64,000 bases of DNA from Alphaproteobacteria bacterium. GTDB taxonomy: Bacteria; Pseudomonadota; Alphaproteobacteria; MPNO01; UBA830. Shown here one piece after another: positions 3,637-40,006 of this stretch (the stretch's first letter is position 1; every line of letters starts with the position of its first letter). Position numbers and translations under genes: made by a program. Below the pieces are notes generated by a model, which saw nothing but the letters and a program-made list of their open reading frames with translations, searched no databases and was not told where the DNA came from. The stretch spans positions 416,001 to 480,000 of the forward strand of contig OZ219790.1 in the NCBI GenBank assembly GCA_964291215.2, given 5' to 3'.

Positions 3637-4780
3637 GACCGAATCCGACCGCGACGGCAGGCGGCGACGCGGCGACGCCGCCGACAGCCTTCAGCACCTC
3701 GCTCATGGAGCTGCTCGATTGTGTGTCGCCAACATATGCGAAACCGTTCCGGTCGACCTCGAAGATGATCGGCTTGGGATTCTTGCGGTTCGGGTGTTCG
3801 TGGGTGCACAGGAAGGCGTTGGCGACGATGCGTTCGTACTGTCTCTTCGCCTTGGCGTGAGGTGGGTTGTCGCCCGGGTCGTTGCGTGTCGGCACAGGTT
3901 CGGAACTCGAGACGACATGTCCCGGGTTGAGGGCTGCGGCAGCGATCTCGCGAACGATATGCTCCTTTAGGGTCTCGTCGCTGTCCCCCTCTTCCTTCCA
4001 GTACATGGCGGACTTCGAGCAATGATGCGGGGCGAGCAGCACATTCCAGGCGAGTGTCGTGCGGATACTTCGGTGGAAGATTCGCCGGATGACGGGATAG
4101 CTGAGGTCCCCCATGAGCAGTGCCCGGCCAGCGTGGTTGCCATTGTAGAGCGAGACCTGGAAGGCGAGGCTGCAGTCGTTGCGGTCACCGAAGCTGTCCT
4201 CGCGAAACGGGGCGTGGACAAACGCCTCGAACCGATTGGAGAGATCCTCACCGTCCAGTGTCGTAATGGTCTTACCGGGAATGGTCAGGAACTGCGCGGG
4301 GAAGCCACGAAACTCGCGTTCGCACAGAAGGTCGTCGTAGCCGATGATGCGAATGCGGTTACCCCGGCCGGGGTCGCCGCCCGCCCGGATAGCGGCTTGG
4401 ACGCGACGCATGGCCTCATCGTGAAAGGCTTGTGCGTCGTCGCAAAGGTCGTCGCCCTCCATGAATTCGCGAAAGGTGCGCGGCGACATCCAGAGTTCGG
4501 AGACGATGACGCGGCGTTTCAACTCCTCGAAGCCCTGGCAATGGTCGAGATCGGGATGGCTAAGTCCGAACACCGACAGGTATGGCGTGCCGCTGAGTCT
4601 CGGAAGGATACGTATGAGCTCGTCGATGACCGGCCAGGCGGGGTCGCTGCGGTTTCCCGCCTTGGCCATGTGCCGAAGGTCGATTTGAAGGTAAACCGTT
4701 TCTGTTACTCGAATGGTCGTGCTGTCGCCCGTGCCGACGGGCCAGAAGATGAAGCCCTGATCAGGTGGTTTGATGGCCAT
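3623..4780 (-). CDS. Metallo-beta-lactamase-fold (ComEC-like) hydrolase with a flexible C-terminal tail ending VGFG-RGNK
   Basis: Motifs VGTGDS, SHPDLDHCQG, NDCS..GDL and PHHCS. ATG at 4780 follows an AAGGGG RBS. Overlaps the next gene by 14 nt. Confidence 0.85.
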   Translation of the reverse strand: MAIKPPDQGFIFWPVGTGDSTTIRVTETVYLQIDLRHMAKAGNRSDPAWPVIDELIRILPRLSGTPYLSVFGLSHPDLDHCQGFEELKRRVIVSELWMSPRTFREFMEGDDLCDDAQAFHDEAMRRVQAAIRAGGDPGRGNRIRIIGYDDLLCEREFRGFPAQFLTIPGKTITTLDGEDLSNRFEAFVHAPFREDSFGDRNDCSLAFQVSLYNGNHAGRALLMGDLSYPVIRRIFHRSIRTTLAWNVLLAPHHCSKSAMYWKEEGDSDETLKEHIVREIAAAALNPGHVVSSSEPVPTRNDPGDNPPHAKAKRQYERIVANAFLCTHEHPNRKNPKPIIFEVDRNGFAYVGDTQSSSSMSEVLKAVGGVAASPPAVAVGFGRGNK

Positions 4781-4840
4781 GTTCCGCAATCCCCTTGGTT
4801 ATTATTGAAACCGAGCATACTGAGGAGAAACACTCGCCCA

Positions 4841-4856
4841 ACACAAGATATGGGGG
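4841..4856. promoter_or_regulatory. NrdR-box-like 16-mer upstream of the MBL operon
   Basis: ACACAAGATATGGGGG (reverse CCCCCATATCTTGTGT) matches about 13/16 of the recalled consensus ACACwATATmTwGTGT. It lies next to a candidate minus-strand promoter (TTGGGC 4841-4836, TATGCT 4819-4814). Only one box was found. Confidence 0.3.
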
Positions 4857-5056
4857 TAGCTGGGCTGATTTCAAGGCTTGGGCAAGCGGCACCGTTATGG
4901 CACGGGCCAAGTGACGCCCGGTATGGAGCTCGAGTGCGCTGACGGAAGACGAGCAGCGGGAGCGGCACGACGGCTTGCGGGAGGTGGGTGCCTTCGTGCC
5001 GGCGTTCCGGCTCGCGCTTCCAGGGGCAGCGTCCTTGGCCTGGCGGGGCGGTCTCA

Positions 5057-5407
5057 TCACCCGGTGTCATGGTGCGCGAGCGTGGACGGAGCGGTGAGAA
5101 TGTCCTCGGCAGGCCGCTCCGCATCGGGGTCCGGCACGATCGTCGAGATGAACTCCCGGATTTCCTCTACTTCGGCCTGGCGTCCGTTGGCGATGAGGTT
5201 CCGGGCGATGGCCTGGGCGGCGAACAGCGAGGCCCGGGCCATCTTGATTTCGGTCTCGGTACCGGGCCATTCGCGCCGGTCGAGGGCCTCGATGGCGAGG
5301 TCGACGACGAGCCGATTGGGCGAAACCTGCCGCTCCCTTGCCGCCGTTTCGATACGCTTCCACTGGTCTGCGGTGACCCGGATGTTCTTCTGAAGTGACG
5401 ATGCCAT
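5057..5407 (-). CDS. Small ribbon-helix-helix/CopG-like DNA-binding protein (116 aa)
   Basis: N-terminal QKNIRVTADQWKRIETAARERQVSPNRLVVDLAIEAL fits a strand-helix-helix pattern. Confidence 0.55.
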   Translation of the reverse strand: MASSLQKNIRVTADQWKRIETAARERQVSPNRLVVDLAIEALDRREWPGTETEIKMARASLFAAQAIARNLIANGRQAEVEEIREFISTIVPDPDAERPAEDILTAPSTLAHHDTG

Positions 5408-5535
5408 GCGGTTTCACTCGTTCTTGCGTGTGGATTCGCGAGAGTTCCGGTTCCGGTTCTTTCAGATCCCCGGGTCCGCGCTGCCCCCGGTCGTTCGGCG
5501 TGGCGGGGCGAAGTCGCGGGCGAACGCGGCCTCCG

Positions 5536-5560
5536 GACAGCTACCGGACCGGTAGCTGTC
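5536..5560. repeat. Perfect 12-bp inverted repeat GACAGCTACCGG-A-CCGGTAGCTGTC
   Basis: Read directly. Related half-sites occur near 5591 (CTGGTAGTT) and 5716 (GAGCTACC). Lies upstream of the RHH gene. Confidence 0.8.
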
Positions 5561-5820
5561 ATGGTGCAGCGTATGCGAGGCCGATATCAGACTGGTAGTT
5601 TCGCAGGAGCAAGTCCATATCCAGCGGGGGCGGAAGGCGCCGCCATGTCTGACGGAGTGCGGCGGGGCGGCGCCCAACCTCCTGATATCGCGCATGTGTT
5701 TGCGGCAAACACGGGAGCTACCAATCCGGTGCGACCTTTCCCGGCGTGACAGGAGCGGACAGTCCTGCGCCCGCCCGCGGCATGGGCAGCCAGCAGCGGA
5801 CACGGGCAGCCATGGCAACG

Positions 5821-5847
5821 CCTGCATCAAGGATGCGTCGGGTGTGA
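5821..5847. repeat. Conserved 27-bp cis element CCTGCATCAAGGATGCGTCnGGTGTGA, copy 1
   Basis: Second copy at 31807-31833 with one mismatch. Contains a GCATC-AAG-GATGC hairpin. Confidence 0.75.
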
Positions 5848-6660
5848 CGGTAAAACTCCGAACGGAGTCGAGATCGGGCGAGGTTGCCCTGCACACCACC
5901 ATCGCCTGAAACGCCGGCGTCACAAGGGACGGGAGCCGTCGCGGCGATTGAGCGAGACGACCGGTCCGCGATCTTCGGGCGCGTTCCGCGTTGTCGTCCG
6001 GTCGCAGAGGTAACAGAACGCGGCGCGGCGTGCAAACGGCGGAGGGCAGTCTTCACACATGGCGCACCGGAGCCGGCGGCGTTACCTCGGCGACACGGGC
6101 GCCGCCGCACATGTTCCGCGGAGCCGAAGGACGCCGCGCACATGTTACCGCGATACAGGCGTGCTGGACGAAAGCGGGGCTGTTCAGGGTGATCGCGTGC
6201 TGCTCACACATTGCCGCAGACGCAGACGGGGATGGCGCACCCGTTACCGCGGCGTCGGCCGCGCGGGTGCGGTGACGGTTGCGATAGCCGTTGCGATCGG
6301 AGGCGCCGACGGCGGCGCCTGCACGACTGCGGGCAGCGGTGCGAAGCACGGTGTCGTGCCGGTCCGGCAGCAGCGCCGGCAGTGGGCGGGTCAGCAGTGC
6401 CTGCGGCCCTGCGCCGGGCTCGGCGCAGCCCGCGATGCACCCATGCGCAGCATGGTGCAGCGGCGCGTGATGCGGCAGCCCCGGATCGCAGTCCGGGGCA
6501 GGTGCCGCAACGGCGAGCGGCGAGCGACAGCGAGCCGGAGCACGAACGCGGCGCGGAGCGCGCGCGAGGTGTCGGCGGCGCAGCGCGACGGGTGTGCGCA
6601 TACGGAGACGGACCGCGCCGCCGCCGGAGCGGAGACGACGCGGCCCGTGGGTGCTGCGTG

Positions 6661-11624: not shown

Positions 11625-12032
11625 TCAACATGGAGATTCGATAGGACCGGAGTTTATCCGAGTGGTCAGCGGGCAAATGTCCCAATCAAGGACGCGACCA
11701 AGCGAGAAGGCGCGGAATCGGCCTTTTCCTTCCTTGCCGTGCAGAATTCGCTTCTGTCCGTTCGAATGAAATCGCGATTGTTTCCACGATCCTCCCAGAC
11801 GGGAGAACAACCCCTCGGCTTCGGCAAAGGGAATGCCATGTCCGTTGTCGGCGACTCTGATGGCCTTGAGCCCGTCGAGGTCCTCTTCAACCAGCGTCAC
11901 GTCGATATGCGTGGCATCCGCATCGACTGCGTTCCAGATCAGCTCGGCCAGGGCAAGGAGGGGTTTTCGGGTCTGCGCGACCCGTTCCAGATGGTCGTCC
12001 TGAACCTGTATCTCAAAGGTCCTGGCGGTCAT
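11625..12032 (-). pseudogene. Truncated GHKL (HATPase_c/MutL-Hsp90-like) ATPase
   Basis: [22 protein letters not shown] and GKEGKGRF motifs. Similarity ends after about 120 aa. ATGA overlap with the hsdR stop. Confidence 0.8.
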
Positions 12033-15000
12033 GCTGCCCACTTCGCCGATAACGCTTCGGCCTGTTGCAGAACCGTCTGCACGGCGGCGTCCTGGAGGTC
12101 GGGCGGATACCCGTGCTTGCGGAGGATGCGCTTGACCAGAACCCGCATCCGGGCGCGGGCCGGCCCGCGGTGCTGCCAGTCCACGGAGGCTTTGCTTTTC
12201 AGCCCGTTCAGCAATTCCCGGGCGATGACGCGAAGGTGATCGTTGCCCATCACCTCGACCGCGCTCTCGTTCTGGGCCAGGGCATCGTAGAAGGCGATTT
12301 CCTCGGGGCTGAGACCCTCCTCCTCGCCGCGCCGGTGTGCGGCGCGGATGTCCTTCGCAAGCCCGATCAGTTCCTGAAGGACCTCGGCCGTCGTGAGGGC
12401 GTTGCCGTGGTAGCGGGCGATCGCTTCTTCCAGCCTCCGGGAGAAGGCCCGGGTCTGCACGACGTTGACCCGGCTTCGCGAGCGAAGCTCCCCGTTGATG
12501 AGCTTGCGCAGCGCCTCCAATGCGAGGTTCTTCTTCTCCATCTCCCGTATCTCGGCCAGGAACTCGTCGGAAAGGATGGAAATGTCCGGCGTATCCAGCC
12601 CGGCGGCTGCGAGAATGTCGACGATCTCGGTCGAAACGACCGCGCGGCTGACGATCTGCTGAACCGCCAGGTCCCGCTCCGCGGAGGACTTGCCGGCGCC
12701 GGGCGCGCTTTTGGCGAGCGCTGCACGGACGGTCTGGAAGAAGCCCACCTCGTCGCGGATTTCCCGGGCTTCGTCGCTGGCGGCCGCGAGCGCGAACGCC
12801 CTGGTGAGCGCCAGCACGGCGTCGTTGAAGCGGCGCCGGGCGTGCTTCTTGCCTTCTCCGGTCGATTCCCGGGCCGCCTCGCGGTGCTGCATGTCGAGGA
12901 CCCACTCGATGGCGCCGGCCAGCGCCGCGAGCCGCTCCTGCGGCGACCCGACAAGGCCGTTGCGGAAGTCGAAACCATGGAACATGGCGCTCACGATCTC
13001 GTACTTCTCCAGCATGACCGCGACGGCTTCGGCCTCGTCGATGCCGGCGTGCCTTCGGTCGTCGCGCGAGTACTGGCCGAGGGCGGACTTCAGGTTCTGC
13101 GCGATGCCGATGTAGTCCACGATCAGACCGGCGGGCTTGTCGCGGAACACGCGGTTGACGCGGGCGATGGCCTGCATGAGCCCGTGCCCCCGCATGGGCT
13201 TGTCGATGTACATCGTGTGCAGGCGCGTCGAAGCCGGTCAGCCACATGTCCCGCACGATCACCAGCCTGAGCGGGTCGTCCGCGTCCTTGATCCGCTTGG
13301 CGAGCAGCTCCCGGCGGGCCTTGCCTCCGATGTGGCGTTGCCAATGCGTCGGGTCCGACGCCGCGCCGGTCATGACGATCTTGATGACGCCGCTTTCGTC
13401 GTCGTCGCTGTGCCAGTCCCGGCGCAGCCTGACGATCTCGCCGTAGAGCGCAACGCAGATGCGGCGGCTCATGCAGACGATCATGGCCTTGCCGTCCATG
13501 CCGGCAATACGACTCTCGAAATGGTCGACCAGATCCCGGGCAACCAGGCGCAGGCGCTTCTCCGTCCCGACGACGGCCTCGACGTTCGCCAATCGTCTCT
13601 TGAGCCGTTCCTGCTCGCCTTCGGCCTCGTCCTCGATCAGTTCGGCGACCTCGTCGTCGAGCGCCGGCTTCTCACCTTCGTCGAGTTCGATGCGGACGAG
13701 GCGGCTCTCGTAGTAGATCGGTACGGTCGCGCCGTCTTCGACGCCGCGGTTGATGTCGTAGATGTCGATGTAATTGCCGAACACGGAAGGCGTGTTCACA
13801 TCCTCCCTTTCGATCGGCGTGCCGGTGAAGCCGATGAAGGAAGCGTTCGGCAGGGCGTCGCGCAGATATTTGGCGAAGCCGTAGGAAATCTCTCCGGTCT
13901 TGCGGGCCATCCTGGCGCGGAAACCGTACTGGCTGCGGTGCGCCTCGTCCGCGATCACGACGATGTTGCGGCGGTCGGAGAGGGCCGGGTATTCGATCTC
14001 GCCGGCCTCGGGTGCGAACTTCTGGAGGGTGGTGAACACCACGCCGCCGGACGGACGCGTCAGAGCCTGTCGCAGGTCCTCCCGGCTGTCGGCCTGCCGC
14101 GGGGTCTGGCGGAGCAGGTCGCGGCACATGGAGAACGTGCCGAACAACTGGTCGTCGAGGTCGTTGCGGTCGGTGAGGACCACGAGGGTCGGGTTCTCCA
14201 TCGCCGGGTGGGCGATGACCTGTCCGGCGTAGAACGCCATCAGCAGGCTCTTGCCGGAGCCTTGCGTGTGCCAGATCACGCCGATACGGCGATCGCCTGC
14301 CGGGCTCGTCGCGGTGATCGTGCGCTCGATCGCATGGCGTACGGCGTGAAACTGGTGATAGCCGGCCACGATCTTGACCAGTCCCGCGCCCGTGTCCCCG
14401 AACACGGTGAAGTCCCGGATCAGGGCCAGGAACCGGTTCTTCTCGAACACGCCTTCGACGACGGTTTCGATCTCGGGGGCGCCCTTCGATGCGACGGCGG
14501 CGCCGTCCACGGTGCGCCAGGGCATGAACCGCTCAAGATTGGCGGTCAGCGATCCGAACCGCGCCTGAAGGCCGTCCGAAGTCATGAGAGCGGCATTGGT
14601 GCGGAACAGGGAAGGTATCTCCTCCTTGTAGGTCCGGAGCTGGTTGAACGCCCCTTCGAGGGTGGCGTTTTCGTCGCCGGGGTTCTTCATCTCGATCACG
14701 GCCAGCGGCAGGCCATTGAGGAACAGCACGATGTCGGGGCGGCGATTGTGTTCGTGCTCGATCACCGTGAACTGGTTCACCGCCAGCCAGTCGTTGGCCT
14801 CGATGTCGTCGAAATCGATCAGACGGGCAGCGTCGCCGCCGATGCTGCCGTCCTCCCGCGCCACCTCGACCGGCACGCCCGCGATCAGGTAGCGGTGCAG
14901 GCGGCGGTTCTCCTCGACGAGGGAGGGAGTCTCCGTCTGCCGCACCTTGCGGAGCACCTCCTCCAGCGCCGCGGCGGGCAGGTCCGGGTTGAGGCGGGCG

Positions 15001-15164
15001 AGCGCCTCGCGGAACCGGCCGGCCAGCAGCACCTCGTCGTAGCTGCCCCGCTCCGGCGCCGGGCCTTCCGGGCCCATGTCCGGCCCATGAACCACGGCAT
15101 AGCCCAGTCCGGCGAGCCATGCGAGAGCCGCGTCTTCGACATCCGATTCGGAAAGACGGCTCAT
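12029..15164 (-). pseudogene. hsdR: Type I restriction enzyme R subunit, frameshifted near 13222
   Basis: [46 protein letters not shown], then MYIDKPM continues in another frame. Confidence 0.92.
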
Positions 15165-16150
15165 TCGCCGGATTCGCCCAGAAGATTGACGATAAGGCGA
15201 ATTATGAGATCCTTGTTCGACGGTGCGCTTTCGGCGATCAACAGGGTGAGCGCCGTCAACCCCCGGGGGTCGAGCCGGTGCGCGATTCCCTCCTGTGTCA
15301 GATAGAGCAGGAACAGCAGGGCGCCGATGCGCTTGTTGCCGTCGGTGAACGGGTGATCCTTGACCAGAAAATAGAGCAGGTTGGCCGCCTTGTCCGCGGC
15401 GCTGCGGTAAAGGGGTTCGCCGAACATGGTCTGCTCCACATTGCCGAGAATGGCTTTCAGGGCTTCGCCGCGCCGGGTGCCGAACAGCGATGTGGCTTCG
15501 CCCTTTGCCGCAAGATCGCTCCTGAAAGCGTCGATCGCGGCGACGGCGGTGTCGAGGCCGAGCGCGCTGGTGGCCGGCTTCGCGCCGGCCGGCGCCTTGA
15601 GGCGGTCCTCGTCGTATTCGAGCAGCACGCGCCACGTGTCGGCGTATCTTGTGATCAGGTCCAGTACGGACTGGCCCGTTTCGTCGACGAGCGCTTGGTT
15701 CCTGAGCGTCCGGGCGAGCAAACCCAGGGTTTGGCGCGCCTCGTCGAGGCCCCGCTCGGCAAGCCGCCGCTCATTCATCGTGTAACCGCTGACGAGATGC
15801 TCGCGCAAGGTGCGGGTGGCCCAGATACGGAACTGTGTGCCGCGCAGGGACTTCACCCTGTAGCCGACCGAGATGATCATGTCGAGGTTGTAGTGATCCA
15901 CCTCCCTGGATACCCTTCGCCCGCCCTCGGATCGAACCTGTGCAAAATTTGCACAGGTTGACCCTGGGTCCAGCTCTTGTTCACGGTAGGCGTTGTGGAT
16001 GTGCCGGGCGATTACGGAACGATCCCGCCCGAACAGTTCCGCCATCTGCGGCCGGGTCAGCCAGACTGTCTCCCTGTCGAAACGCACGTCCACGCGCGCC
16101 TCGCCGTCCCCGGACTCGTAGACGATGACTTCGCCGCCGGGGGAGTTCAT
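15161..16150 (-). CDS. RhuM-like virulence domain + Fic/Doc domain protein
   Basis: [14 protein letters not shown] and [21 protein letters not shown] (RhuM), plus [11 protein letters not shown] (Fic/Doc motif). Stop/start overlaps with hsdS and hsdR. Confidence 0.9.
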
Positions 16151-17759
16151 GCAACGTCCTCGACTGCCTCTTCGGCATCACGAAGGCGGATTTCGCCGGA
16201 CATGAGCTTGGGGAGCAGGAGGTCGCGGGTTTCTGCAAGCTTTCGGCTCTCCAGTTTATTCTTGATGGTGTGTTCTATCAGCGGGCCAATCGACGGGCCA
16301 AGCAAGGAAAGGACGCCATCAGAGGGGCAAGTCGTTGTTGCCTCCTTCAGGTGCCGTCGTTGAATGTGACCCATGGTTGTTGTCTTCGAGGCTGCTATAG
16401 CCTGAAACTCTTCCAAGTGATGGAGAACCCACTGGCTGACGAACCATGATGGAAATCTCTCCGAAGTCACTTTGAAGAGGTGTTGGTTCAGCGCTCCTTC
16501 GCCTTCGGTCCAGAACTTTGCAAGAAGGCTGCCCGACCAAGAGAACAAGAAGTCACCATCCCTCACGACATACTTGTCTGGGACATCGTATGAGGCCCGG
16601 CTAGATCTGGGCGTTATGCCCGCGCGCAACTCGGCGATTTTGATGACCGGTAAACTGTCGTCAGGGCCCAAGGCAGGAAATTTCTGAAGAGCCAGACCGT
16701 TCAGGAAGTTTGCGATCTTGTCGAGAGGCAGTCTCACCCACCCGGCCGGCTTGCCCTCGCCGTCCAGCGCATCGGGAAACAGTTCCCACAGTTCGGGGGC
16801 GAGGTACGGAGCACGCCCTTCCATTTTCGCCCGGACCGGCCCGAAATCGACGAACCAGTCCTTGAAGATCGCCCGCGCCATCGCCTCCAGCGTCTCGTTC
16901 ATGCGCCGGTTCAGTTCGATCTTGTCGTCCAGCGCGCCGAGAATGCCCGCAATGGCGCGCTGTTCGAGTAGGGGGGTACTGGAACCGGCAGATAACTCAG
17001 GGAATCGACAGGCACTCGCTGACGCCCGGAAGTGCCGGTCATTTGATCCACGGCGTAGCTTCTCACCCCCTCCCATTGAGTTAGGTAGTAGGCGTACTCG
17101 GAATCCGTGACGCCCGCGCGTCCGCGGATAACGATGAACTCGGTCGAGCCATGCGCGCACTCTGCCGCCCGGTCTGTGCAATAACGGGCAATCTTGCCAT
17201 TCTCCAAGCACGGCGTAATGCGCGCCATGAGCGTGTCGCCATCTTGGAAGCGCGACCCGCCGCCGGAATAGGCGCGCCGGTCAATCGCATGTACGCACCG
17301 GGAACCGGCAGTGACCGCAGCCATATCAACGAACGGATACGCCATTCCGCGTTCAAGACGCACTGCCGGGTTGACAACGACTGCTTCGGTAAACGGCATA
17401 CGCCGCCACTTTTCATCTACAGAGAGCCTCCTTCGCCTGGTGTCATCAATGTCTGCCAGCACCGCATGGTTCCGCTCAATCTCCCGATGAAATCGCTCCG
17501 GCAGGCGCGCCCAGTCGCGGGCCTCGACCAAGAAGGGAATGGTCGATTCCCGCACCGCCTCCTCGAAGTCCGCCAACTTGTCGGCCGGGATCTCCCCCTG
17601 TCCCGGCCCGCGCAGCACCAGATCGAGATCACTGCCGTCATGGCTGCGCCCGTTGACGCGGCTGCCATAGGCCCATACCTCGACATCGGGCAAATGCTCC
17701 CGCAGCAGGGCTGTCAGCACCTGGCGGTGCTTCGGCTCAAGATGCAACCGGTCAGTCAT
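16147..17759 (-). pseudogene. hsdS: Minimal nucleotidyltransferase (MNT) fused to type I specificity subunit HsdS; frameshift at G6 tract 16971-16976
   Basis: N-terminal AYGSRVNG..SDLDL (MNT), then TRD1 (ARITPCLENGK, GTSGRQR), PP/LLEQRAIAGILGALDDKIELN, TRD2 and RDLLLPKLMSGEIR. Confidence 0.88.
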
Positions 17760-18177
17760 CCGGCGCCGCCTCGATCATGTCCGCCAGCGCCCGGGCATCG
17801 GCGATAAAGTCGGGCAACAACTTGAGCGGGGTCTCGGCGAAGCCTGCGCCGTAGTCGTGCGCGGTATCGTTGCGGTTGTCGCGATAGCTGAACCAGCGTT
17901 CCGCCGCGACGGCTTCGATCAGTCCGTGCCGGGCGGCGTGGCGGAACAGGTCCTTGAAGGCAAGCCGGTCCGCCTGTCTGTTGCTGGCGAAGAAGGCGGC
18001 AAGCCGCTTGCGCAACAGTTTGCCGCTCTGCTCCAACACCAGCTCGAACTCCTTCACGCAGGCGGCGCGATAGATGTCATACATGAAATCGTCCGTCGCG
18101 CGCTGGTTGTCGATCTCGCCGAAAGCTGTCTCCAGCGTTCCGATGCAGCGCCGCAAGAAGGTGGTATCGATGCTCAT
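17752..18177 (-). CDS. HEPN toxin (HI0074 / nucleotidyltransferase substrate-binding family)
   Basis: ACVKEFELVLEQSGKLL..KDLFRHAA..RNDTAHDY (Rx4H). Directly upstream of MNT-HsdS. Confidence 0.85.
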   Translation of the reverse strand: MSIDTTFLRRCIGTLETAFGEIDNQRATDDFMYDIYRAACVKEFELVLEQSGKLLRKRLAAFFASNRQADRLAFKDLFRHAARHGLIEAVAAERWFSYRDNRNDTAHDYGAGFAETPLKLLPDFIADARALADMIEAAPDD

Positions 18178-18299
18178 GCCCCGCTGCTCCGTCCCCGGTG
18201 CGCAGACCCGTTGCGGCTCATCCATGAGCGGCAGACCGATTGGTCGATCAATTTCGGCAAGATTATGAGCCTCAGCAACCGTTGCTATGACACAGGCGT

Positions 18300-18570
18300 G
18301 CGCCATGTTGCCCACCGGAATTTCCTCCAATTCTGGTCCGCGCAGCACCAGATCGAGATCGCTGCCGTCATGGCTGCGCCCATTGACGCGGCTGCCATAG
18401 GCCCACACTTCGACATCGGGCAAATGCTCCCGCAACAGTACCTCAAGCGCCTCGCGGTGCTTCGGCTGGAGATGCATCCGGTCAGTCATCCGGCGCCGCC
18501 TCGATCATGTCCGCCAGCCCCGGTGTCGGCGATAAAGTCGGGCAGCAGCCTCAGCGTGGCCCCGGCGAAG
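18300..18570 (-). pseudogene. Remnant of a second HEPN-MNT pair (HEPN 3-prime end plus truncated MNT)
   Basis: 18340-18545 is a near-identical repeat of 17610-17815. The MNT copy (ATG 18489) diverges after about 60 aa. Confidence 0.75.
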
Positions 18571-18724
18571 TCTTTCCCGTTGTCATGGACGATATCGTTA
18601 TCGACAATCCCTCGCAGGTCATGGCAGGGGCAAGGCTGTCGGGGAACAGCCTTCACTGGAAGGCGCCGCGCGCCTTGGCTTACCGACATATTTCCCGGCG
18701 CATGCAAATGGGAAGAGATCATCG

Positions 18725-20263
<1,539 letters not shown>

Positions 20264-20494
20264 ATAGTCTGAATCCTTGGCCGCCAACGCGGATACAGTT
20301 TGCCGACTCGGCTCTACGAATACCACTGCATACTTGGCCGACACGGTTCGGGTGGGGAAGGATCCCGTAGATCGCGGTGCCACCATTCCAGCGTCGCCGA
20401 CGCTGCCCAACAGATCAATATGATAGCGCGTCACGGGGTACAGGATGCGCCGCCCGAGCGACAGGCACTGAGCTCGACTTTGTACAAAATTACC

Positions 20495-22533: not shown

Positions 22534-22962
22534 CTACTTACGCCAACTCCCTGACCATAGACCACGCCATATTCGTACGATCCGTGATCGAAGAGCCCGA
22601 CGGCTCCGTGTTGAGTCCAGCAAACGGGCCCGCTCGCCGTCGACATACTCCGAATGACGACTTGGATCGATCCCCTCCAACCAAATCACCGCGTTATCCC
22701 GTATCACGTAGTGGCTGCCGCAGCCGGAATTGGCCCACACGGATCCACCCGTAGGACCGTCCAGCGAGACCGACTTCCCATCGAAGTGAACGTGCCATCG
22801 ACTGGGGTGGAGGGACAGCACCGTCAGATCGCCGCATCCGCAAGGGCAGCGCAGGTTGACAGTCCGATGTTTGTGGCTGATCCAAAGCTCGCCGGTTTTG
22901 ATTTGGTCGAACTTGGGCAGCACCTCTACGAAGACAGGGCAGAGTTTCACGGGCATTCTCAC
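22534..22962 (-). CDS. DUF6527-family protein
   Basis: GELWIS..CPCGCG..LSL...W..SV...GCGSHYVIR..VIW pattern. GTGA overlap with the ThiF gene. Confidence 0.8.
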   Translation of the reverse strand: MRMPVKLCPVFVEVLPKFDQIKTGELWISHKHRTVNLRCPCGCGDLTVLSLHPSRWHVHFDGKSVSLDGPTGGSVWANSGCGSHYVIRDNAVIWLEGIDPSRHSEYVDGERARLLDSTRSRRALRSRIVRIWRGLWSGSWRK

Positions 22963-24161
22963 CGCGAGTCATTCGCTCTGACACTGACAATGCGCGGGGT
23001 TTCGAGTCGGAATTTATAGAGGAACGAAGCCGACTCCGACACATACTGCTCCGTGCGGCGCCGCCACTCCATCACGGCGAGCGACGCCGCCAACGCGTTC
23101 ACTTCCGGTAACTGGACGTTGTGATAGCCGGGCACACTGCCCTCGATTCTAGCGTTCGGTATGGCCTCCTTCCATGCCTCAGACCCAGCGGCATAGGCGC
23201 TTGTCGTCACGGCGCCTCTAACAGCGCAGTCTTCCAGCGCTATGCTCACGCCCGAATCTATAAACGGAACCTTCGTCTCAGAGAGTGCGCAGTAGACGGC
23301 ATCCTGACGCGACGAATCGCCGTTGGTCAGCTGGTCGATACACACGAATGCATAGTCGATGGGGTGTGCCGACAGAAACTTGCCGAAAATTGACGGACTG
23401 TCTACCCGGACAGCGTGCGCGTGGATGCCTTCCCGGAGAGGTGTATACTTGGAGAAGTAGTAGTCTACTTTGCGCAAATGTTCCTTTTTGCACGACTCAA
23501 CCTCCTCGGCTGTAGGTGCACCGGGCGCACGCATCAAATTGTGCCAGTTAACGTCGTCTGAATCCAGTAGATGAATTTCCTTCACGGGTGTTTTTGCGAC
23601 AAGATCGAGGACGTAGGCGCCTGTTCCGCCCAGACCAATGATCGCAATCCGTTGACTACGGATGCGATCCTGAACCGGCCTCAACGCCGCTCGTGCCTCG
23701 AACGTGTTGGGTATCTTGAAAGGCTCCTGCTTCGCTAGAGAAGCGGTTTCGTAGTAACCGGCCTCCGACACGGCCCCGACGATCTGCTTCGCGTAGCGGT
23801 GAATCAAGTCATCCACCGACCCATCCTCCTCCGGACTGCCTTGCCCACCTTTCTTGATGGAAATGATCGACCAAGTCTTTCCATCGCCGGCGATGTAGTT
23901 CTCGATCGGGGTTCCATCCGCGTGGTACACGCGCCCGTCGAGTTCTTCGTCAGTGATGATCCGCACCGCATGGATCGCGTCGCCTATCTGATCATTCGGC
24001 TTCCCGTTCGCGCGGTCGTACGACTTCTCTATAGTGCAAGTGCCAACGCCCCTGTCTGCAAGGAGACAAGGCACCCCCACGGCCCGGACGACATCGGAAT
24101 CGACTCTGATGCTAAACCCGGCCTGCTCACCGAACGCTTTGAGGCGATTCCTACGAGACAT
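22959..24161 (-). CDS. E2-like (DUF6791-like) + ThiF/E1 adenylyltransferase fusion (400 aa)
   Basis: IAIIGLGGTGAYVLDLVAKTPVKEIHLLDSD..HNLMRAPG, FVCID, FIDSG and YHNVQLPEVNALAA. ATG 24161 overlaps the end of the Ubl gene. Confidence 0.85.
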   Translation of the reverse strand: MSRRNRLKAFGEQAGFSIRVDSDVVRAVGVPCLLADRGVGTCTIEKSYDRANGKPNDQIGDAIHAVRIITDEELDGRVYHADGTPIENYIAGDGKTWSIISIKKGGQGSPEEDGSVDDLIHRYAKQIVGAVSEAGYYETASLAKQEPFKIPNTFEARAALRPVQDRIRSQRIAIIGLGGTGAYVLDLVAKTPVKEIHLLDSDDVNWHNLMRAPGAPTAEEVESCKKEHLRKVDYYFSKYTPLREGIHAHAVRVDSPSIFGKFLSAHPIDYAFVCIDQLTNGDSSRQDAVYCALSETKVPFIDSGVSIALEDCAVRGAVTTSAYAAGSEAWKEAIPNARIEGSVPGYHNVQLPEVNALAASLAVMEWRRRTEQYVSESASFLYKFRLETPRIVSVRANDSR

Positions 24162-24399
24162 GCTCGGGGTCGACCGAAAAGCTTGTGCCGTCCTTGACTT
24201 TAACATCCTTGCTCGGCAAGAGAACACCATCCTCGTCCTTGAAATCGTCTTTGTAGTCGATGCCGGGTGTACCGATGATGTGCTTGTTCTCTGCCTTGTG
24301 CAGCTTGTTCCAGATCTTTACGACCTCGGCATAGTTAACAATATGGCCGGGGACTTTGTACACTCGACCGCTCACGTAGATCTCCGTGTCGCCATTCAT
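24151..24399 (-). CDS. Single-domain ubiquitin-like (multi-ubiquitin family) protein, 82 aa, ending in Ser
   Basis: IYVSGRVYKV..VNYAEVVK..IDY..GVLLPSKDVKVKDGTSFSV fits the beta-grasp Multi_ubiq pattern. GGAGAAG RBS. Sits first in an operon with an E1. Confidence 0.7.
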   Translation of the reverse strand: MNGDTEIYVSGRVYKVPGHIVNYAEVVKIWNKLHKAENKHIIGTPGIDYKDDFKDEDGVLLPSKDVKVKDGTSFSVDPEHVS

Positions 24400-24826
24400 C
24401 GTTTTACTTCTCCGATTGTTGGAGGTTGAAGGGAATTCGAACCACTCGGCCCAATTGTACATCATGGCAACCCGATGTTCGTCGAAGCACGGGTGGGTCT
24501 TGGCGCTCCGCGCTTCCCGGCGCCATAATCTCCGACCTCAATCCGGGCTCGCACGGCATGATCTCCGTGTAACAGCAATGCGCCTCTGCCGTACGAACTC
24601 CGCCGCCCCTTCGGTCAGATCCAGGGTCCTCCGAAGGCCAACGAATCTCGTCACTGCATCGCCGCCCTCGATACCAGTGTATTGTTGGGCAGCCTGATGG
24701 CGCGACGGTCCGACCCACCTTGTCACAGGTGCCGCGGTGATCTATCGTGTATGCCCATGCAGTCCACGGGCAGATAGCCTTACGCGGTGCTGACGAGATC
24801 CATTGATGCATGCGTCTCACTGAGAT

Positions 24827-24870
24827 TGTTGTCCGTACAGACAACATAAGCCACCGCGGCCGCATGTCAA
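24827..24870 (-). promoter_or_regulatory. Sigma70-like promoter for the Ubl operon overlapped by a palindromic operator
   Basis: Minus strand TTGACA (24870-24865), 16 nt, TATGTT (24848-24843). Near-perfect 20-bp palindrome TGTTGTCCGTACAGACAACA at 24827-24846. Confidence 0.65.
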
Positions 24871-24880
24871 GGGGAGAGCG

Positions 24881-25264
24881 ATGTCGTTCGGCTACACGCT
24901 GAGGAGGTTCCGGGAAGCCCGTGGTCTGAGCTTACGCGAGTTCGGCAAGCTCTGCGGAATCGACCACGCGTACATCCACCGGCTCGAACGGGAGGAAAAG
25001 ACGGCTCCCTCCGAGCAAGTGGTCGACACCTTCGTCCGCACCTTGAAGCTCAACTCTCGAAGGGCGCGCCTGCTGCGCCTGCTGGTCGGGAAGACGATCA
25101 ACCGTACCCTCATCGACGTGTTCATCGAAGACGAGCAGCGACCGCTGGACCTACTAGAGCCTGCTCACCAGATGAGCTTCCGGGGAACGCGCCCTGAAGC
25201 CAAGGACGACTGGCGCCGGCATGTCGATCGTTTGGCTCGCCTGTTCGATGAAGACGACGAATGA
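24881..25264 (+). CDS. XRE/HTH transcriptional regulator (CapH-like)
   Basis: FGYTLRRFREARGLSLREFGKLCGIDHAYIHRLEREEKTAPS. GGAGAG RBS. Confidence 0.9.
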   Translation: MSFGYTLRRFREARGLSLREFGKLCGIDHAYIHRLEREEKTAPSEQVVDTFVRTLKLNSRRARLLRLLVGKTINRTLIDVFIEDEQRPLDLLEPAHQMSFRGTRPEAKDDWRRHVDRLARLFDEDDE

Positions 25265-26146
25265 ATGGACGAGTTCCCGACGATTCTCAGTGCTCGCCAG
25301 TTCCTTCGGGACGCTGGCAACGACTCTGTGCCCGTCGACGTCGGGCGCTTGGCTGCGGCAGCCAACGCGAAGATCAAGGTCGCTTACGATCTCGCCGACG
25401 ATGAATCTGGCCAGACCACCCGGTTCAAAGGAACACACGTCATCATCGTCAACGGCAATCACACGGAGGAGCGGCAGCGCTTCACCGTGCTTCATGAAAT
25501 CGCCCACATCGTTCTTGGACTGCCTTCCCAGCACCACGGCTCGACGCTCAAGACCGACGTGCTTCTCCGGTACGGACGGCGACCCGAGGAAGAAGTGCTT
25601 TGTGATGTTTTCGCTGCCGAGTGCCTGCTTCCTTACCACCCGTTTGCCGAACAAGTCGCCGACTCGGAAATCTCCCTGAATGCCGTGAAGTCGCTTGCCC
25701 GAGAATACAAGGCATCATTGACCACGACGGGATCGAGATTCGCTCTGAATGCGAGAGAGCCCTGTGCGTTCGTCCTCAGCGAGAACGGGCGGATCCGTTA
25801 TGTGTCCCGGTCGAAATACCTGAATGAGCTGAAGGGATGGATCAATTTCAACGCCTCTGTGCCGCAAGGCAGCGTCGCGCAGCGCCTGATCGAGGGTGGT
25901 CCGAAGATCGAGGATTACGACGAACTCCCAACAGATGTCTGGTTCGACGGAGGCGTCAGGAACCGACCATTGATTGCTGAGGAAGCCATCCTCCTGCGGG
26001 ACTGGAATCAATGTCTTTCACTCATCTGGTTTGACGAGCGCCTGACACCAGTCCGGGAGCGCCGGGACGAGGATGAAAAGGTTGAGCCTTTGCTCCAACA
26101 GCTTGACGGTACACTACCGTGGCCATCCAGAAGTCGCCGTGGATAG
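25265..26146 (+). CDS. ImmA/IrrE-family Zn metallopeptidase (CapP-like)
   Basis: RQRFTVLHEIAH (HExxH), EEVLCDVFAAECLLP and a C-terminal GAF-like extension. Abuts the HTH gene. Confidence 0.9.
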   Translation: MDEFPTILSARQFLRDAGNDSVPVDVGRLAAAANAKIKVAYDLADDESGQTTRFKGTHVIIVNGNHTEERQRFTVLHEIAHIVLGLPSQHHGSTLKTDVLLRYGRRPEEEVLCDVFAAECLLPYHPFAEQVADSEISLNAVKSLAREYKASLTTTGSRFALNAREPCAFVLSENGRIRYVSRSKYLNELKGWINFNASVPQGSVAQRLIEGGPKIEDYDELPTDVWFDGGVRNRPLIAEEAILLRDWNQCLSLIWFDERLTPVRERRDEDEKVEPLLQQLDGTLPWPSRSRRG

Positions 26147-35918: not shown

Positions 35919-36534
35919 GGTCCGATCTCCCCGGTTGCGTCCGCCGCGACTCCCTCCCGGTCAACGGCTTCGCTCCCGAACCGCCTTTCTCCACCTCTGC
36001 GGCGCGAACGGGTCGGCCTCGCCTGCATTGCCGCGCTGCCCGGGGCATCGGTGCGCATGAACGGGCGGGGATCGATGGCGCGGCGCGGCGCGGGTGACGA
36101 CAGACGGCGGCGGGCCGGCAGCGGAGCATGGCCGCCATGTGCGAGCCCCCATGGGTCGCCGGACAGCACGGGCCGGCGGCGCAGCAGGAAGACGAACACG
36201 GTCGGGCCGCCTGTTCCGTCCGGCGAAGGCGACATGGCGAAGGCAACGATCGGAGGGCGGTTCAGCCTCAGTGCCACGGCTCGCTGTCGGGATCGCCGTC
36301 CTCGGCGCGCATGGAGGCGGCAACCATGGCGGTCCAGGCTTCGCGGTCGTAACCGAGCCTTCGGTTCAGTTTGTCGCAGCTATGGAAAGCTTTCCATAGC
36401 TGCGATTATGGTGACAACAAGACTATGGTGAGTTGCAGAGATAAAGCCTTGAAATAAAGAGCGAGTCGCTCCGGATCGCTTTCCATAGTATCAGCATTCT
36501 CCTCGCGTCAACCCAATTGCGAAGGAGAATGAAA

Positions 36535-38100
36535 ATGCGATCAATAAGCGAACCAGGGTGTTCATGGCACGTCATCAACGACCTGCATGCCGGGTTGTTG
36601 TCGGAGTTTCACATTTATCTGCAACAAGCAGGTAATTCTGAGAACTCCATCCGGTTTTATCTCGGTACAGCAAGGCATTTCCTAGCTTGGCTGAAGGCGG
36701 ACGGGACCACGCTGGAAACCATTGATAATTCAGTTCTGTTAGCTTTCCGGGACCATGATTGCGACTGTTTCGTGTCGACGCAAGGGTTTCCATGGCCGAA
36801 GCGGGAACCCGGGCTTGGCAAGACAAGCATGTTGCAGGCTATCCGCTTTGTGAATTTCCTGGAAAGCAGCGGCAGAACCTGGCATCCCGGCGAGATTCGA
36901 ATTGGCATTCAATACCTTGAAGATTATAGCGAACAATGTTCGGAACTGGGGTATCGAGAAAGGACCCTTCGTGACTTGAAGTTTTACATCCGCCACTTTC
37001 TGGTGTGGCTCTACCGAACAAGAACTTCGATAAAGTCGATCAACTCGAACATTATAGAGTCGTTTCTCAGTCACGACTGCTTGTGCCACAACTACGCTTT
37101 AACCCCCAACAAGCTCAGAAGGGCCAAGACCTGCGAATCGACTGTCAAGGACTTTGCAAATTACCTCGCCGAGCAGGGTGTCGCATCAGCGGCCGCTGCG
37201 AAATCACAGCAAGGAAGACCTCGAAAACTGGAGGGGTTTTGCGTCTGGCTTGAACAGCATCGCGGCATATCAACATCGACCATCGAGGTACATGATCACT
37301 ATGCGTCGATTGTTGTCGGCAATCTTGGAACCGACACGAACCAGTACGATGCCGCTTTGGTCCGTCAAGTTCTGCTCCGCGAATTTGCCAGTAGCGGCTT
37401 GGGCCGTGCGAAGGCCATGACTTGTTCCACACGCATGTACCTGCGCTTTCTCGCGTCGACCGGTGCGTGTTCTCCTGGCCTCGTCAACTCAGTTCCATCC
37501 CCAGCGTTTTGGCGGCTCTCGACGCTGCCGCGTTACATACCCATGGAAGATGTCGAACAGATGATCGCATCCTGCGATGTGAACACGCCTGGAGGCGTGC
37601 GTGATCGCGCCATCCTGCTTCTACTTGCGAGGTTGGGTCTGCGTGCTGGAGATATCTGCGAACTTGGGCCCTCGGACATCGATTGGGTCAACGCCGAAAT
37701 CCATGTCTGCGGCAAGACGAGGCGGTCTGTGGCATTGCCGCTCCCACAAGACGTTGGCGATGCGGTGTTGCATTACATTCGCACAGCTCGTCCGACCGCC
37801 GCGACATCAAAGCTGTTTCTGTGCCTGAATGCGCCACATCGGCCTTTCGCCGATTCCAGCGCTGTGTCGATGATAGTCGCGGCCGCCCTCAAGCGCGCAG
37901 GTATAAATAGGCCACGCGGTCGAGGTGCCCATCTTCTGCGCCATTCTCTGGCCACAGACATGCTCCGCTCCGGTGCATCGATGGATACCATAGGAGCGTT
38001 GCTTCGGCACAAGTCTCGGGAAACCACCGCGATCTACGCCAAAGTCGACGTTCCCATGCTCGAAAGTGTGGCTCAGCCGTGGGTCGGAGGCGACCGATGA
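36535..38100 (+). CDS. ritA: RIT tyrosine recombinase A with extended, internally duplicated N-terminus
   Basis: RDRAILLLLARLGLRAGD, GAHLLRHSLAT, LRHKS..TAIY. Two HDCxC-containing N-terminal repeats. Confidence 0.88.
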   Translation: MRSISEPGCSWHVINDLHAGLLSEFHIYLQQAGNSENSIRFYLGTARHFLAWLKADGTTLETIDNSVLLAFRDHDCDCFVSTQGFPWPKREPGLGKTSMLQAIRFVNFLESSGRTWHPGEIRIGIQYLEDYSEQCSELGYRERTLRDLKFYIRHFLVWLYRTRTSIKSINSNIIESFLSHDCLCHNYALTPNKLRRAKTCESTVKDFANYLAEQGVASAAAAKSQQGRPRKLEGFCVWLEQHRGISTSTIEVHDHYASIVVGNLGTDTNQYDAALVRQVLLREFASSGLGRAKAMTCSTRMYLRFLASTGACSPGLVNSVPSPAFWRLSTLPRYIPMEDVEQMIASCDVNTPGGVRDRAILLLLARLGLRAGDICELGPSDIDWVNAEIHVCGKTRRSVALPLPQDVGDAVLHYIRTARPTAATSKLFLCLNAPHRPFADSSAVSMIVAAALKRAGINRPRGRGAHLLRHSLATDMLRSGASMDTIGALLRHKSRETTAIYAKVDVPMLESVAQPWVGGDR

Positions 38101-39017
38101 CCATGACTTATCACGTCGAGCGCTACGTCGCTCTCAAACGCCATCTTGGCTTCAAGTTCGTCGGGCAGGGACGAATCCTGGGGACCTACGCCAAGCATGC
38201 GGACGATCACGGCGATGAGTTCATTCTTTGCAACCGGATGATCGAAGCGGCGACCGGAACCGCGAAACTTCCGACCATAAGGACGAGGCTCGCGTTTCTC
38301 CGGAATTTTGCCTTGTGGCTCCACTCAGAAGACGAACGCCACGAAGTCTTGCCCCGGAATGTGCTTGGCCAGCCGGAAACACGACGGCGAACGCCATGCC
38401 TGATGACGCCGGAGGAAATCCGGAAAGTGATGAACGCGGCACTGGACTTGCCGCCTGCGGGTTCAATTACGCCGCACAGCATTTACTACATGATCGGACT
38501 CGCCGCGGCCACGGGAATGCGAGCAAGCGAGGTCGTTTTGCTGACGATATCGGACCTCACCCCCGACGGTGTTGTTATCCAGGAGACAAAGTTCAAGAAA
38601 TCAAGGCTCGTTCCCTTGCACCTTACCGTTCGCAGAGCTCTCGAACGGTATCTGGAGATCCGGAGGCAGAACGGAGCTGTCCACGACCGCCTGTTCGTTC
38701 TATCGAACGGCAATCCGGTTCAACCCGGGTACCTGTCCCAGAAGTTCACCGAACTGGCGATAAAGACAGGAATCAAAAAGGGGCCGGGCGAGGGACCCAG
38801 CTTTCACAGTTTGCGCCATACCTTCGCGGTCAGATCTCTGGAAACGGCCGATACGACCGATCACGCAGACATTAGTCGGCACATCGTGGCTTTGACTACC
38901 TATCTCGGCCACGCTCACATGTCGAGCACCTACTGGTACCTGGAGGCCACTCCGACTCTGCTCCAGTCAATCTCCGACGCTGTCGAGAACGCACATGTGA
39001 AAGGGGTATCGCGATGA
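38097..39017 (+). CDS. ritB: RIT tyrosine recombinase B
   Basis: TGMRASE, TKFKKSRLVPLH, HSLRHTFAV and YLGH..TYWYL. Confidence 0.9.
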   Translation: MTMTYHVERYVALKRHLGFKFVGQGRILGTYAKHADDHGDEFILCNRMIEAATGTAKLPTIRTRLAFLRNFALWLHSEDERHEVLPRNVLGQPETRRRTPCLMTPEEIRKVMNAALDLPPAGSITPHSIYYMIGLAAATGMRASEVVLLTISDLTPDGVVIQETKFKKSRLVPLHLTVRRALERYLEIRRQNGAVHDRLFVLSNGNPVQPGYLSQKFTELAIKTGIKKGPGEGPSFHSLRHTFAVRSLETADTTDHADISRHIVALTTYLGHAHMSSTYWYLEATPTLLQSISDAVENAHVKGVSR

Positions 39018-40006
39018 CGGACCTTGCCCCTTACATCTCTATGTTCCTGCAGCAGCATCTGCCGCGTGACCGAAACGTCAGCCGCCATACAATCGCGAGT
39101 TACGCATACACCTTCGAGTTACTTGTCGACTTCGCCGCGGACAGGTTGGGAATCTGGCCGTCCGAAATGGCGATCGAGCAGATTACGGTAGAACTGGTTC
39201 TCGACTTCCTCGATAGTCTTGAAAAAGAGCGTCAGAATACGGTCCGGACCCGTAATCTCAGGCTTGCGGCGATCAAGTCGTTCTTCCGGTATCTGGAGTT
39301 CAAGGTCCCCGCATGCCTGCATCTGGCGCAACGCGTTCATGCGATCCCCATAAAGAGCTTCGACCAAGCCTTGGTCGATTACCTCGAACGCGATGAGCTG
39401 CAAGCGGTACTGGATGCTCCGGACCCGACGACCGTGAATGGCGTACGGGATCGAGCAATGCTGCACTTGACCTACGCCGCGGGCTTGCGGGTCTCCGAAC
39501 TCATCGGGCTCAAGTGCAACGATATAGCTCCCAATCCGGGGTGGGTTCATGTGATGGGAAAGGGCGACCGCAAATTGCCGGTAAGGAAGGAGACGCGCTC
39601 GCTCTTGGAGGACTGGCTGGCTGTACGGCCGGACTGTATCAGTGACCATCTCTTCCTGAACGCTCGGGGGCGGGCGATGACCCGACATGGGTTCGCGCAC
39701 CGATTGGCTATCCATGTCGCTGCAGCAAAGCAGATAGTGCCGTCGATTGCAGAAAAGCGGGTCAGTCCGCATGTCATTCGACATTCCTGCGCGATCCATA
39801 CCTTGGAAGTGGTCAGAGATCCGCGAAAGGTGTCGTTGTGGCTAGGTCATGCAAGTGTGCAGTCCACCGAAATCTATCTGCGCGCCGAACCGATCCAGAA
39901 ACTCGAAATGCTGGGCGAAATGGTTCCGCCACATATCAGGAAAGGCAGATTCAATAATGTGCCAGACCACTTGATCGCAATGTTCCGTGATCTCAAGAGG
40001 GTCTAA
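39014..40006 (+). CDS. ritC: RIT tyrosine recombinase C
   Basis: RTRNLRLAAIKSFF, GLRVSE, PHVIRHSCA and WLGH..TEIY. The GKGDRKLP loop looks a few residues short. Confidence 0.9.
   Translation: MTDLAPYISMFLQQHLPRDRNVSRHTIASYAYTFELLVDFAADRLGIWPSEMAIEQITVELVLDFLDSLEKERQNTVRTRNLRLAAIKSFFRYLEFKVPACLHLAQRVHAIPIKSFDQALVDYLERDELQAVLDAPDPTTVNGVRDRAMLHLTYAAGLRVSELIGLKCNDIAPNPGWVHVMGKGDRKLPVRKETRSLLEDWLAVRPDCISDHLFLNARGRAMTRHGFAHRLAIHVAAAKQIVPSIAEKRVSPHVIRHSCAIHTLEVVRDPRKVSLWLGHASVQSTEIYLRAEPIQKLEMLGEMVPPHIRKGRFNNVPDHLIAMFRDLKRV

What the first reader, a model, noticed from the sequence alone, without database searches (positions are those of the whole stretch)
22534..26146. Minimal ubiquitin-like operon (Ubl + E2-like/E1 + DUF6527) under a divergent CapH/CapP-like switch
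Seen: three translationally coupled genes face away from an HTH + HExxH peptidase pair, and all five are intact. Established (from memory): Bub/DUF6527-type operons encode Ubl, E2-E1 and a processing peptidase and are often controlled by CapH/CapP, which respond to DNA damage. Here there is no JAB or separate E2-fold peptidase, only one short Ubl, and a very divergent E2-like domain. Inference: a stripped-down, stress-inducible conjugation system.
Basis: partly seen in the sequence, partly recalled or inferred. Interest (0 to 1): 0.75.

Follow-up and report, generated by a model that had tools for sequence, protein, structure and literature searches.

The report
Divergent Type II Bub tagging operon
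These five intact genes are a complete, distantly related member of an already described bacterial ubiquitin-like system (Type II "Bub") that likely tags proteins when a likely DNA-damage-sensing repressor/protease switch turns it on, so it is ordinary in design rather than a stripped-down new system.

Summary
All five ORFs are real, intact and under purifying selection. The three-gene operon is not stripped down. Ubl + E2-E1 fusion + DUF6527 without a JAB is the published definition of Type II Bub, DUF6527 (BubE) is itself the peptidase, 40% of Bub Ubls have one domain, and 31% of operons carry CapH+CapP. The same five-gene layout is catalogued for Croceicoccus. The 82-aa protein folds as a beta-grasp whose best PDB match is E. 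coli BubA. Its Ser terminus is normal (85 of 85 canonical Type II Ubls). The catalytic residues map: E1 R211/Y346, E2 H64/S101/K103, BubE S74/H84 plus four Cys. What is distinctive is the lineage: a long-branch group, seen only in metagenome-assembled genomes of seven named phyla, whose E2 domain escapes Pfam DUF6791. In it the accessory Lys varies, Cys42 is invariant (probably structural), the Ubl tail is PEHVS, and the divergent peptidase regulator comes in three forms. Activity, induction and phage defence are untested. The scan had already called Type II Bub operons on four other genomes. Verdict: new member of a known kind.

The parts
24151..24399 (-). bubA: single beta-grasp ubiquitin-like protein, 82 aa, ends VDPEHVS (free C-terminal Ser, no glycine, no pro-peptide)
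   Evidence: Multi_ubiq E 0.003, under cut-off; pLDDT 88; top Foldseek hit 9CD2 E. coli BubA, E 1.9e-4, TM 0.67
22959..24161 (-). bubBD: E2-E1 fusion, 400 aa. Divergent E2-like domain about aa 1-140 (H64, S101, K103; lineage-invariant C42); ThiF-type adenylation domain about aa 160-390 (GxGGTG, R211, crossover-loop Y346)
   Evidence: (PRK06153 models E 3e-53, under cut-off)
22534..22962 (-). bubE: DUF6527 zinc-binding serine peptidase, 142 aa from GTG (C39, C41, C43, C81; S74-H84 dyad)
   Evidence: E 3e-15; S74 and H84 in 32 of 32 related loci
24881..25264 (+). capH-like XRE repressor, 127 aa; F100-R101 is a candidate cleavage site (E. coli CapH is cut between F82 and R83)
   Evidence: capH E 7e-12; R101 invariant in 6 aligned HTH proteins
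25265..26146 (+). capP-like IrrE/M78 zinc metallopeptidase, 293 aa (H77, E78, H81, E110); no Cys in the cysteine-switch loop
   Evidence: (capP E 7e-51 over 9-242 of 242 positions)
24843..24870 (-). sigma-70-like promoter match TTGACA-16-TATGTT facing the bub operon (consensus match only)
   Evidence: 3 sites found in the region against 0.2 expected in shuffles; the -35 hexamer is kept in L003
24827..24846 (.). 7-bp inverted repeat with a 6-bp spacer overlapping the -10 box; candidate CapH operator (inferred)
   Evidence: read; 6-bp arms kept while the spacer changes in L002 and L003. Only 2 really independent sequences.

Best explanation
This is an intact Type II Bub ubiquitin-like operon of a divergent lineage, whose E2-E1 enzyme likely attaches the 82-aa tag to other proteins through tyrosine and serine oxyesters once the neighbouring CapP-like protease likely cuts the CapH-like repressor under DNA-damage stress. 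Steps: (1) at rest CapH likely binds near the promoter at 24843-24870 and represses bubA-bubBD-bubE (inferred from homology and divergent layout). (2) Single-stranded DNA from damage or infection would activate CapP, which would cut CapH, possibly at F100-R101 (inferred from Lau et al.). (3) The E1 domain would adenylate the free C-terminal Ser82 of BubA using R211. No processing is needed because the gene ends at that Ser (sequence shown), which explains the absence of a JAB. (4) BubA would pass to Y346, then to S101 of the E2 domain assisted by H64, then to a target amine (chemistry shown for E. coli and Citrobacter Bub; residue mapping shown here; activity inferred). (5) BubE (S74-H84, four-Cys zinc site) would remove the tags and so damp the system. 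The target is unknown; the most likely role is defence against phage or other mobile DNA, from the defence-island setting.
For: Gene order and content equal the published Type II definition and a catalogued operon with CapH+CapP. Ubl model's best PDB match is E. coli BubA. C-terminal Ser in E. coli BubA and in 85 of 85 canonical Ubls found in 92 loci examined. R211 and Y346 invariant in 120 of 120 close homologs; they align with the Arg and Tyr that are invariant in 76 of 76 canonical BubBD and equal E. coli R219/Y342 (counted on the sequence). Deep profile comparison of the E2 domain with canonical BubBD: probability 96-97%, E 2e-10 to 4e-9, aligning H64/H66, S101/S106, K103/K108. H64 and S101 invariant in 69 of 69 sequences down to 25% identity; S101 ends a strand in the model. 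BubE S74 and H84 in 32 of 32, with the same 10-residue spacing as Citrobacter S92/H102. dN/dS 0.06-0.40. 21 of 36 related loci have a divergent HExxH-type regulator of one of three forms. Neighbours include a type I RM system and a 6A-MBL defence system.
Against: The E2 fold was not confirmed structurally: Foldseek gave no match at E 0.001 or better, and BubB (9EAE) was only rank 16, E 0.11, TM 0.39, though it had the highest probability (0.63) of the listed rows. A shallower profile alignment put the canonical Ser on non-conserved Q107 rather than S101. The accessory Lys is K in only 32 of 69 lineage sequences (R 22, H 9) against 74 of 76 canonical. The Ubl Pfam score is below cut-off. No Bub operon has been shown to protect against phage. 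No activity or induction was tested here.
Confidence: 0.85

Rival explanations
1. Same operon, different chemistry: this lineage's E2 uses its invariant Cys42 (with H64 and S101) as a thioester carrier or as a replacement for the accessory lysine.
For: C42, H64 and S101 are the only invariant columns in 69 lineage sequences; the canonical position is Gly in 70 of 76; the Lys is variable.
Against: C42 aligns with canonical G46, while canonical Y36 and C76 align with lineage C32 and Y79. That pattern looks like a compensating repack of one structural pocket (inference). C42 starts strand 39-49, several residues along the sheet from H64 (no coordinates were available to measure). Y346 and S101 are both fully kept.
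Confidence: 0.07
2. The E2 domain is catalytically dead or only a binding module, so the system stops at adenylation or at a BubA-Tyr intermediate.
For: No DUF6791 hit, weak structural match, one alignment register without a Ser at the catalytic position.
Against: A His and a Ser stay invariant over 25-100% identity and map on the canonical catalytic pair with deeper profiles.
Confidence: 0.05
3. One reading: a stripped-down or deletion-derived system that lacks its processing peptidase.
For: No JAB gene in the operon and only one short Ubl.
Against: This is the standard Type II content and BubE is the peptidase. The same three genes recur complete in 26 of 36 related loci and in 10 of 10 plasmid loci fetched.
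Confidence: 0.03

Closest known systems
Type II Bub operon (6E.2 / DUF6527): BubA, BubBD, BubE; reference E. coli ZDHYS365 (Ye, Gong, Chambers, Corbett, PMC11601596)
   Same: Gene order and content, no JAB, Ser-ended Ubl overlapping the E2-E1 start, E1 Arg and Tyr, E2 His/Ser/Lys in this copy, BubE four Cys and Ser-His, divergent CapH+CapP.
   Different: About 25-30% identity to canonical BubBD; E2 not recognised by DUF6791; Lys variable and Cys42 invariant in the lineage; Ubl tail PEHVS against mostly T-[DNG]-[KR]-S; 11-nt rather than mostly 26-nt Ubl/E2-E1 overlap; BubE has a short insertion and Type I-like S-V-W spacing.
Croceicoccus naphthovorans plasmid p1 Type II Bub operon (Table S1 row 310; locus L045)
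   Same: Identical five-gene layout: ImmA/IrrE peptidase and HTH divergent from a single-domain Ubl, E2-E1 and DUF6527.
   Different: Canonical lineage (DUF6791 E 3e-51, tail TATDKS); 28% BubBD identity.
CapH/CapP regulator of CBASS and other immune operons (Lau et al., 10.1101/2022.04.27.489752)
   Same: Divergent HTH + HExxH peptidase pair, full-length capP profile match, same His-to-Glu spacing, a Phe-Arg pair in the CapH C-terminal part.
   Different: CapH is about 20 aa longer with a weak profile score (44 bits); no Cys in the switch loop; cleavage and binding untested.
Type I Bub and Bil operons
   Same: Ubl, E1, E2 and peptidase functions; Type I Bub shares BubE and the oxyester chemistry.
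   Different: These encode a JAB peptidase and Gly-ended or pre-protein Ubls; Bil uses cysteine thioesters and separate E1 and E2. Not the family here.

Membership tests
Type II Bub | Operon of Ubl, E2-E1 fusion and DUF6527, typically no JAB | tested here: met
Type II Bub | BubA has 1-3 beta-grasp domains | tested here: met
   AlphaFold2 pLDDT 88; top Foldseek hit 9CD2, E 1.9e-4
Type II Bub | BubA ends in a free Ser (seen in the reference and in canonical loci; not found stated in the passages searched) | tested here: met
   (85 of 85)
Type II Bub | E1 adenylation Arg (R219) and crossover-loop Tyr (Y342) instead of a catalytic Cys | tested here: met
   R211 and Y346 in 120 of 120; aligned; canonical 76 of 76
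Type II Bub | E2 domain homologous to BubB with invariant Ser and His | tested here: met
   profile-profile 96-97%, S101/S106 and H64/H66; 69 of 69; the shallower alignment gave another Ser register
Type II Bub | Accessory Lys two residues after the Ser | tested here: met
   K103 in this copy, but only 32 of 69 in the lineage; mutation of K108 does not abolish the product in E. coli (Fig. S5h legend)
Type II Bub | UBC-like fold of the E2 domain by structure search | tested here: inconclusive
   Foldseek no hit at E 0.001; BubB 9EAE E 0.11, probability 0.63, with other E2 folds among weak rows; the VIA searches could not be run
Type II Bub | BubE with four-Cys zinc site and Ser-His dyad | tested here: met
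Type II Bub | ATP-dependent conjugation through oxyesters | not testable with these tools
   needs biochemistry
CapH/CapP | Divergent HTH + full-length IrrE-like HExxH peptidase sharing the promoter region | tested here: met
CapH/CapP | ssDNA-stimulated cleavage of CapH and damage induction | not testable with these tools
   needs biochemistry; no RNA holder listed
Type I Bub / Bil | JAB peptidase in the operon and Gly-ended or pre-protein Ubl | tested here: not met

The most novel reading that the evidence does not exclude
A separate branch of Type II Bub, passed between many phyla in what look like marine-invertebrate symbiont communities, has rebuilt its E2 around a Cys-His-Ser set and changed its Ubl tail, so that it uses a different transfer chemistry (a Cys42 thioester step or Cys-assisted Ser) and an orthogonal tag.
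Probability: 0.07. Interest if true: 0.6.

Novelty: new member of a known kind. Interest (0 to 1): 0.25.

Why it matters
The design is published, so the locus alone adds little. Its modest value is as a compact representative (82-aa tag, under 2 kb operon) of a deep Bub lineage that Pfam DUF6791 misses. The biological role and targets of Bub systems are still unknown. A lineage that has spread across seven named phyla and repeatedly sits beside a divergent peptidase-type switch gives indirect support for a stress-induced defence role, and a natural comparison for which E2 residues matter (Ser and His kept, Lys dispensable).

Tried and rejected
Rejected: 'missing glycine is novel' (Ser is the Type II norm); 'missing peptidase' (BubE is the peptidase); 'deletion derivative' (26 of 36 related loci complete; the broken ones are frameshifted, IS-interrupted or partly deleted copies, e.g. 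L008 with an in-frame Ubl-E1 deletion); longer upstream starts for the Ubl (104 aa) and E2-E1 (423 aa) frames, because conservation begins at the inner Met in relatives. The tree is the quick one; the careful search did not finish and no test_one_clade was run. Literature searches listed only the two Corbett-lab preprints on Bub; a search for sponge + symbiont + ubiquitin-like + ThiF gave 0 papers; subscription papers are not covered.
Full report
Observation. The five ORFs are present and open: on the minus strand an 82-aa protein (24151-24399), a 400-aa protein (22959-24161) and a 142-aa protein (22534-22962); on the plus strand a 127-aa HTH (24881-25264) and a 293-aa HExxH peptidase (25265-26146). 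The operon genes overlap by 11 nt and, taking the GTG start, by 4 nt; the regulator genes abut. Pfam gives Multi_ubiq (E 0.003, under cut-off), ThiF (1e-13), DUF6527 (3e-15), HTH_31 and Peptidase_M78. PADLOC gives capH (7e-12) and capP (7e-51). NCBIfam gives PRK06153 models for the 400-aa protein (3e-53, under cut-off). dN/dS against L003 is 0.06-0.40 for all five genes, and 0.07-0.26 for the operon genes compared against L006 and L009.

What the literature says. Of Ye et al. (PMC11601596) I read parts 1-4 of 7 of the text, passages, part 1 of 2 of the supplementary PDF, part 1 of 7 of Table S1 and a term search in it. It defines Type II Bub as Ubl + E2-E1 fusion + DUF6527, typically with no JAB; 168 of 544 operons carry CapH+CapP. 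The E1 works through a crossover-loop Tyr (Y342) and the E2 through a Ser (S106) with a His and Lys nearby. Mutating R219, Y342 or S106 removes the product, mutating K108 does not. DUF6527 (BubE) is a Ser-His peptidase that removes conjugates. No Bub operon had been shown to protect against phage. Of Gong et al. (PMC11601603) I read part 1 of 6 and passages: 218 (40%) of Bub Ubls have one beta-grasp domain. Of Lau et al. (10.1101/2022.04.27.489752) I saw the listing and passages: CapP is activated by ssDNA and cuts CapH between F82 and R83. Table S1 lists Croceicoccus naphthovorans with the same five genes, and its plasmid locus shows the same layout.

The Ubl. The AlphaFold2 model (pLDDT 88) has a beta-grasp topology and its best Foldseek matches are the two chains of E. 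coli BubA, 9CD2 (E 1.9e-4 and 3.0e-4). It ends in VDPEHVS, as do 30 of 31 related loci with a Ubl match (the other is a deletion fusion). E. coli BubA ends in TQTDKS. Among 92 canonical loci examined (10 plasmid, 2 viral, 80 metagenome), 85 had a callable Ubl and all 85 end in Ser (one locus had no BubBD call and six no Ubl call). The Ser end is therefore a family trait; the PEHVS tail, without the usual penultimate Lys or Arg, is lineage-specific.

The E2-E1 protein. The E1 domain keeps GxGGTG, R211 and Y346, invariant in 120 of 120 sequences (the query and 119 close homologs), and these align with the canonical Arg and Tyr, invariant in 76 of 76 canonical proteins. The N-terminal domain is truly divergent. 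It has no DUF6791 hit, nor did any of 16 representatives scanned, while 2 of 2 canonical controls score E 1e-51 or better. A profile of the domain found 41 representatives among 1.84 billion proteins; two of these are unrelated repeat proteins. In 69 aligned lineage sequences down to 25% identity only C42, H64 and S101 are invariant. A shallow profile comparison with 10 canonical domains gave 89% probability but placed the canonical Ser on Q107. With 69 against 76 sequences the probability rose to 96-97% (E 2e-10 global, 4e-9 local), and the alignment was H64/H66, S101/S106, K103/K108, Y123/Y123. In the model (pLDDT 87.5) S101 ends a strand and Q107 lies in a low-confidence loop. Foldseek was inconclusive: no hit at E 0.001; BubB 9EAE had the highest probability of the listed rows (0.63, TM 0.39) and several E2 folds appear among the weak rows. 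C42 sits on canonical G46, with C32 on Y36 and Y79 on C76. I read this as a repacked structural pocket rather than a new nucleophile, but no coordinates were available to test it. The Lys is K in 32, R in 22 and H in 9 of 69 against K in 74 of 76 canonical.

BubE and the regulators. BubE keeps C39, C43, C81, S74 and H84 in 32 of 32 related loci and C41 in 31 of 32. S74 to H84 has the spacing of Citrobacter S92 to H102. CapP has H77, E78, H81 and E110 and no Cys in the switch loop; the paper's tree legend shows CapP members with and without the switch. CapH has F100-R101, with R101 invariant among 6 aligned HTH proteins. A promoter-like TTGACA-16-TATGTT faces the operon, and a 7-bp inverted repeat overlaps its -10 box, with arms kept and spacer changed in L002 and L003; this is a candidate operator only.

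Relatives. A scan of GTDB genomes gave 36 loci, all from metagenome-assembled genomes, labelled Pseudomonadota, Chloroflexota, Acidobacteriota, Latescibacterota, Gemmatimonadota, Binatia and Saccharibacteria. That many of these names belong to sponge-associated taxa is my recall and comes from no call. The scan used peptides of this protein, so it is biased to close relatives. 26 of 36 hold all three genes full length. None of 60 sampled relatives of the host matched, which fits patchy, mobile inheritance. A quick maximum-likelihood tree of 34 lineage and 38 canonical proteins (every second one of the 76) separates them by one branch of length 1.41 with SH-aLRT 100 (unrooted, groups defined by how they were found, long-branch warning given). 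The divergent regulator varies: close CapH/CapP in 3 loci; a shorter HTH plus about 195-aa ImmA-like pair in 16 (only weak capP scores for 3 tested); and single 371-385 aa HExxH proteins in 2 (probably HTH-peptidase fusions, not scanned).

Context. The cassette (GC about 57% against about 65% flanks in L001) lies between a type I restriction-modification cluster and broken tyrosine recombinase genes, in a region with RadC, ParB and a 6A-MBL defence system. The insertion sequences on both sides (IS701; an IS5-like element, named from recall, and IS630) are absent from L001 and L002 and do not cut the five genes.

Verdict. A complete Type II Bub operon of a divergent lineage, most likely functional by the published oxyester mechanism (0.85) and probably damage-inducible; target and role unknown. 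Four earlier scan reports on other genomes reached the same family call; I had recorded this reading before opening them. New member of a known kind; interest 0.25.

Noticed in passing
window 136-4789 (-): A second ubiquitin-like defence system, 6A-MBL: MBL enzyme (3623-4789, NF058524 above cut-off) and a 1166-aa E2-E1-JAB protein (136-3636, NF058523 above cut-off) with a patatin phospholipase domain fused at its C-terminus (aa 785-1030). One literature search listed nothing on it.
   Followed up: partly
G000:C1:869768-870268 (L140 4768-5268, -): An orphan C-terminal half of a canonical-type DUF6527/BubE elsewhere in the genome, in a conjugative-element-like region with no Ubl or E1 seen beside it.
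   Followed up: partly
L004, L007, L009, L010, L012-L014, L017-L021, L023, L025, L030, L032, about 4350-5900 (-): 16 relatives carry a different divergent regulator: an HTH plus a short (about 195 aa) ImmA-like peptidase lacking the CapP C-terminal part. Its inducing signal is unknown.
   Followed up: partly
P0148, P0150, P0153-P0155, P0157, P0159, P0160, P0166: Very divergent (25-37% identity) E2-E1 proteins that share the C42/H64/S101 pattern; no names, neighbourhoods unknown.
   Followed up: partly
window 11625-20434 (-): Type I restriction-modification cluster (hsdM 18725-20434, hsdR pieces) with two tandem nucleotidyltransferase-like genes and a RhuM/Fic gene inside it; some frames look fused or shifted.
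   Followed up: no
window 24400-24880: The 481-nt leader between capH and bubA is long; canonical loci often hold a small gene there (DUF2188, DUF3892), but L003 differs from the window by a 53-nt indel, which argues against a conserved ORF.
   Followed up: partly
window 36517-40006 (+) and 59868-60977 (-): A triplet of tyrosine recombinase genes, and a low-GC PtuA-like ATPase fragment.
   Followed up: no
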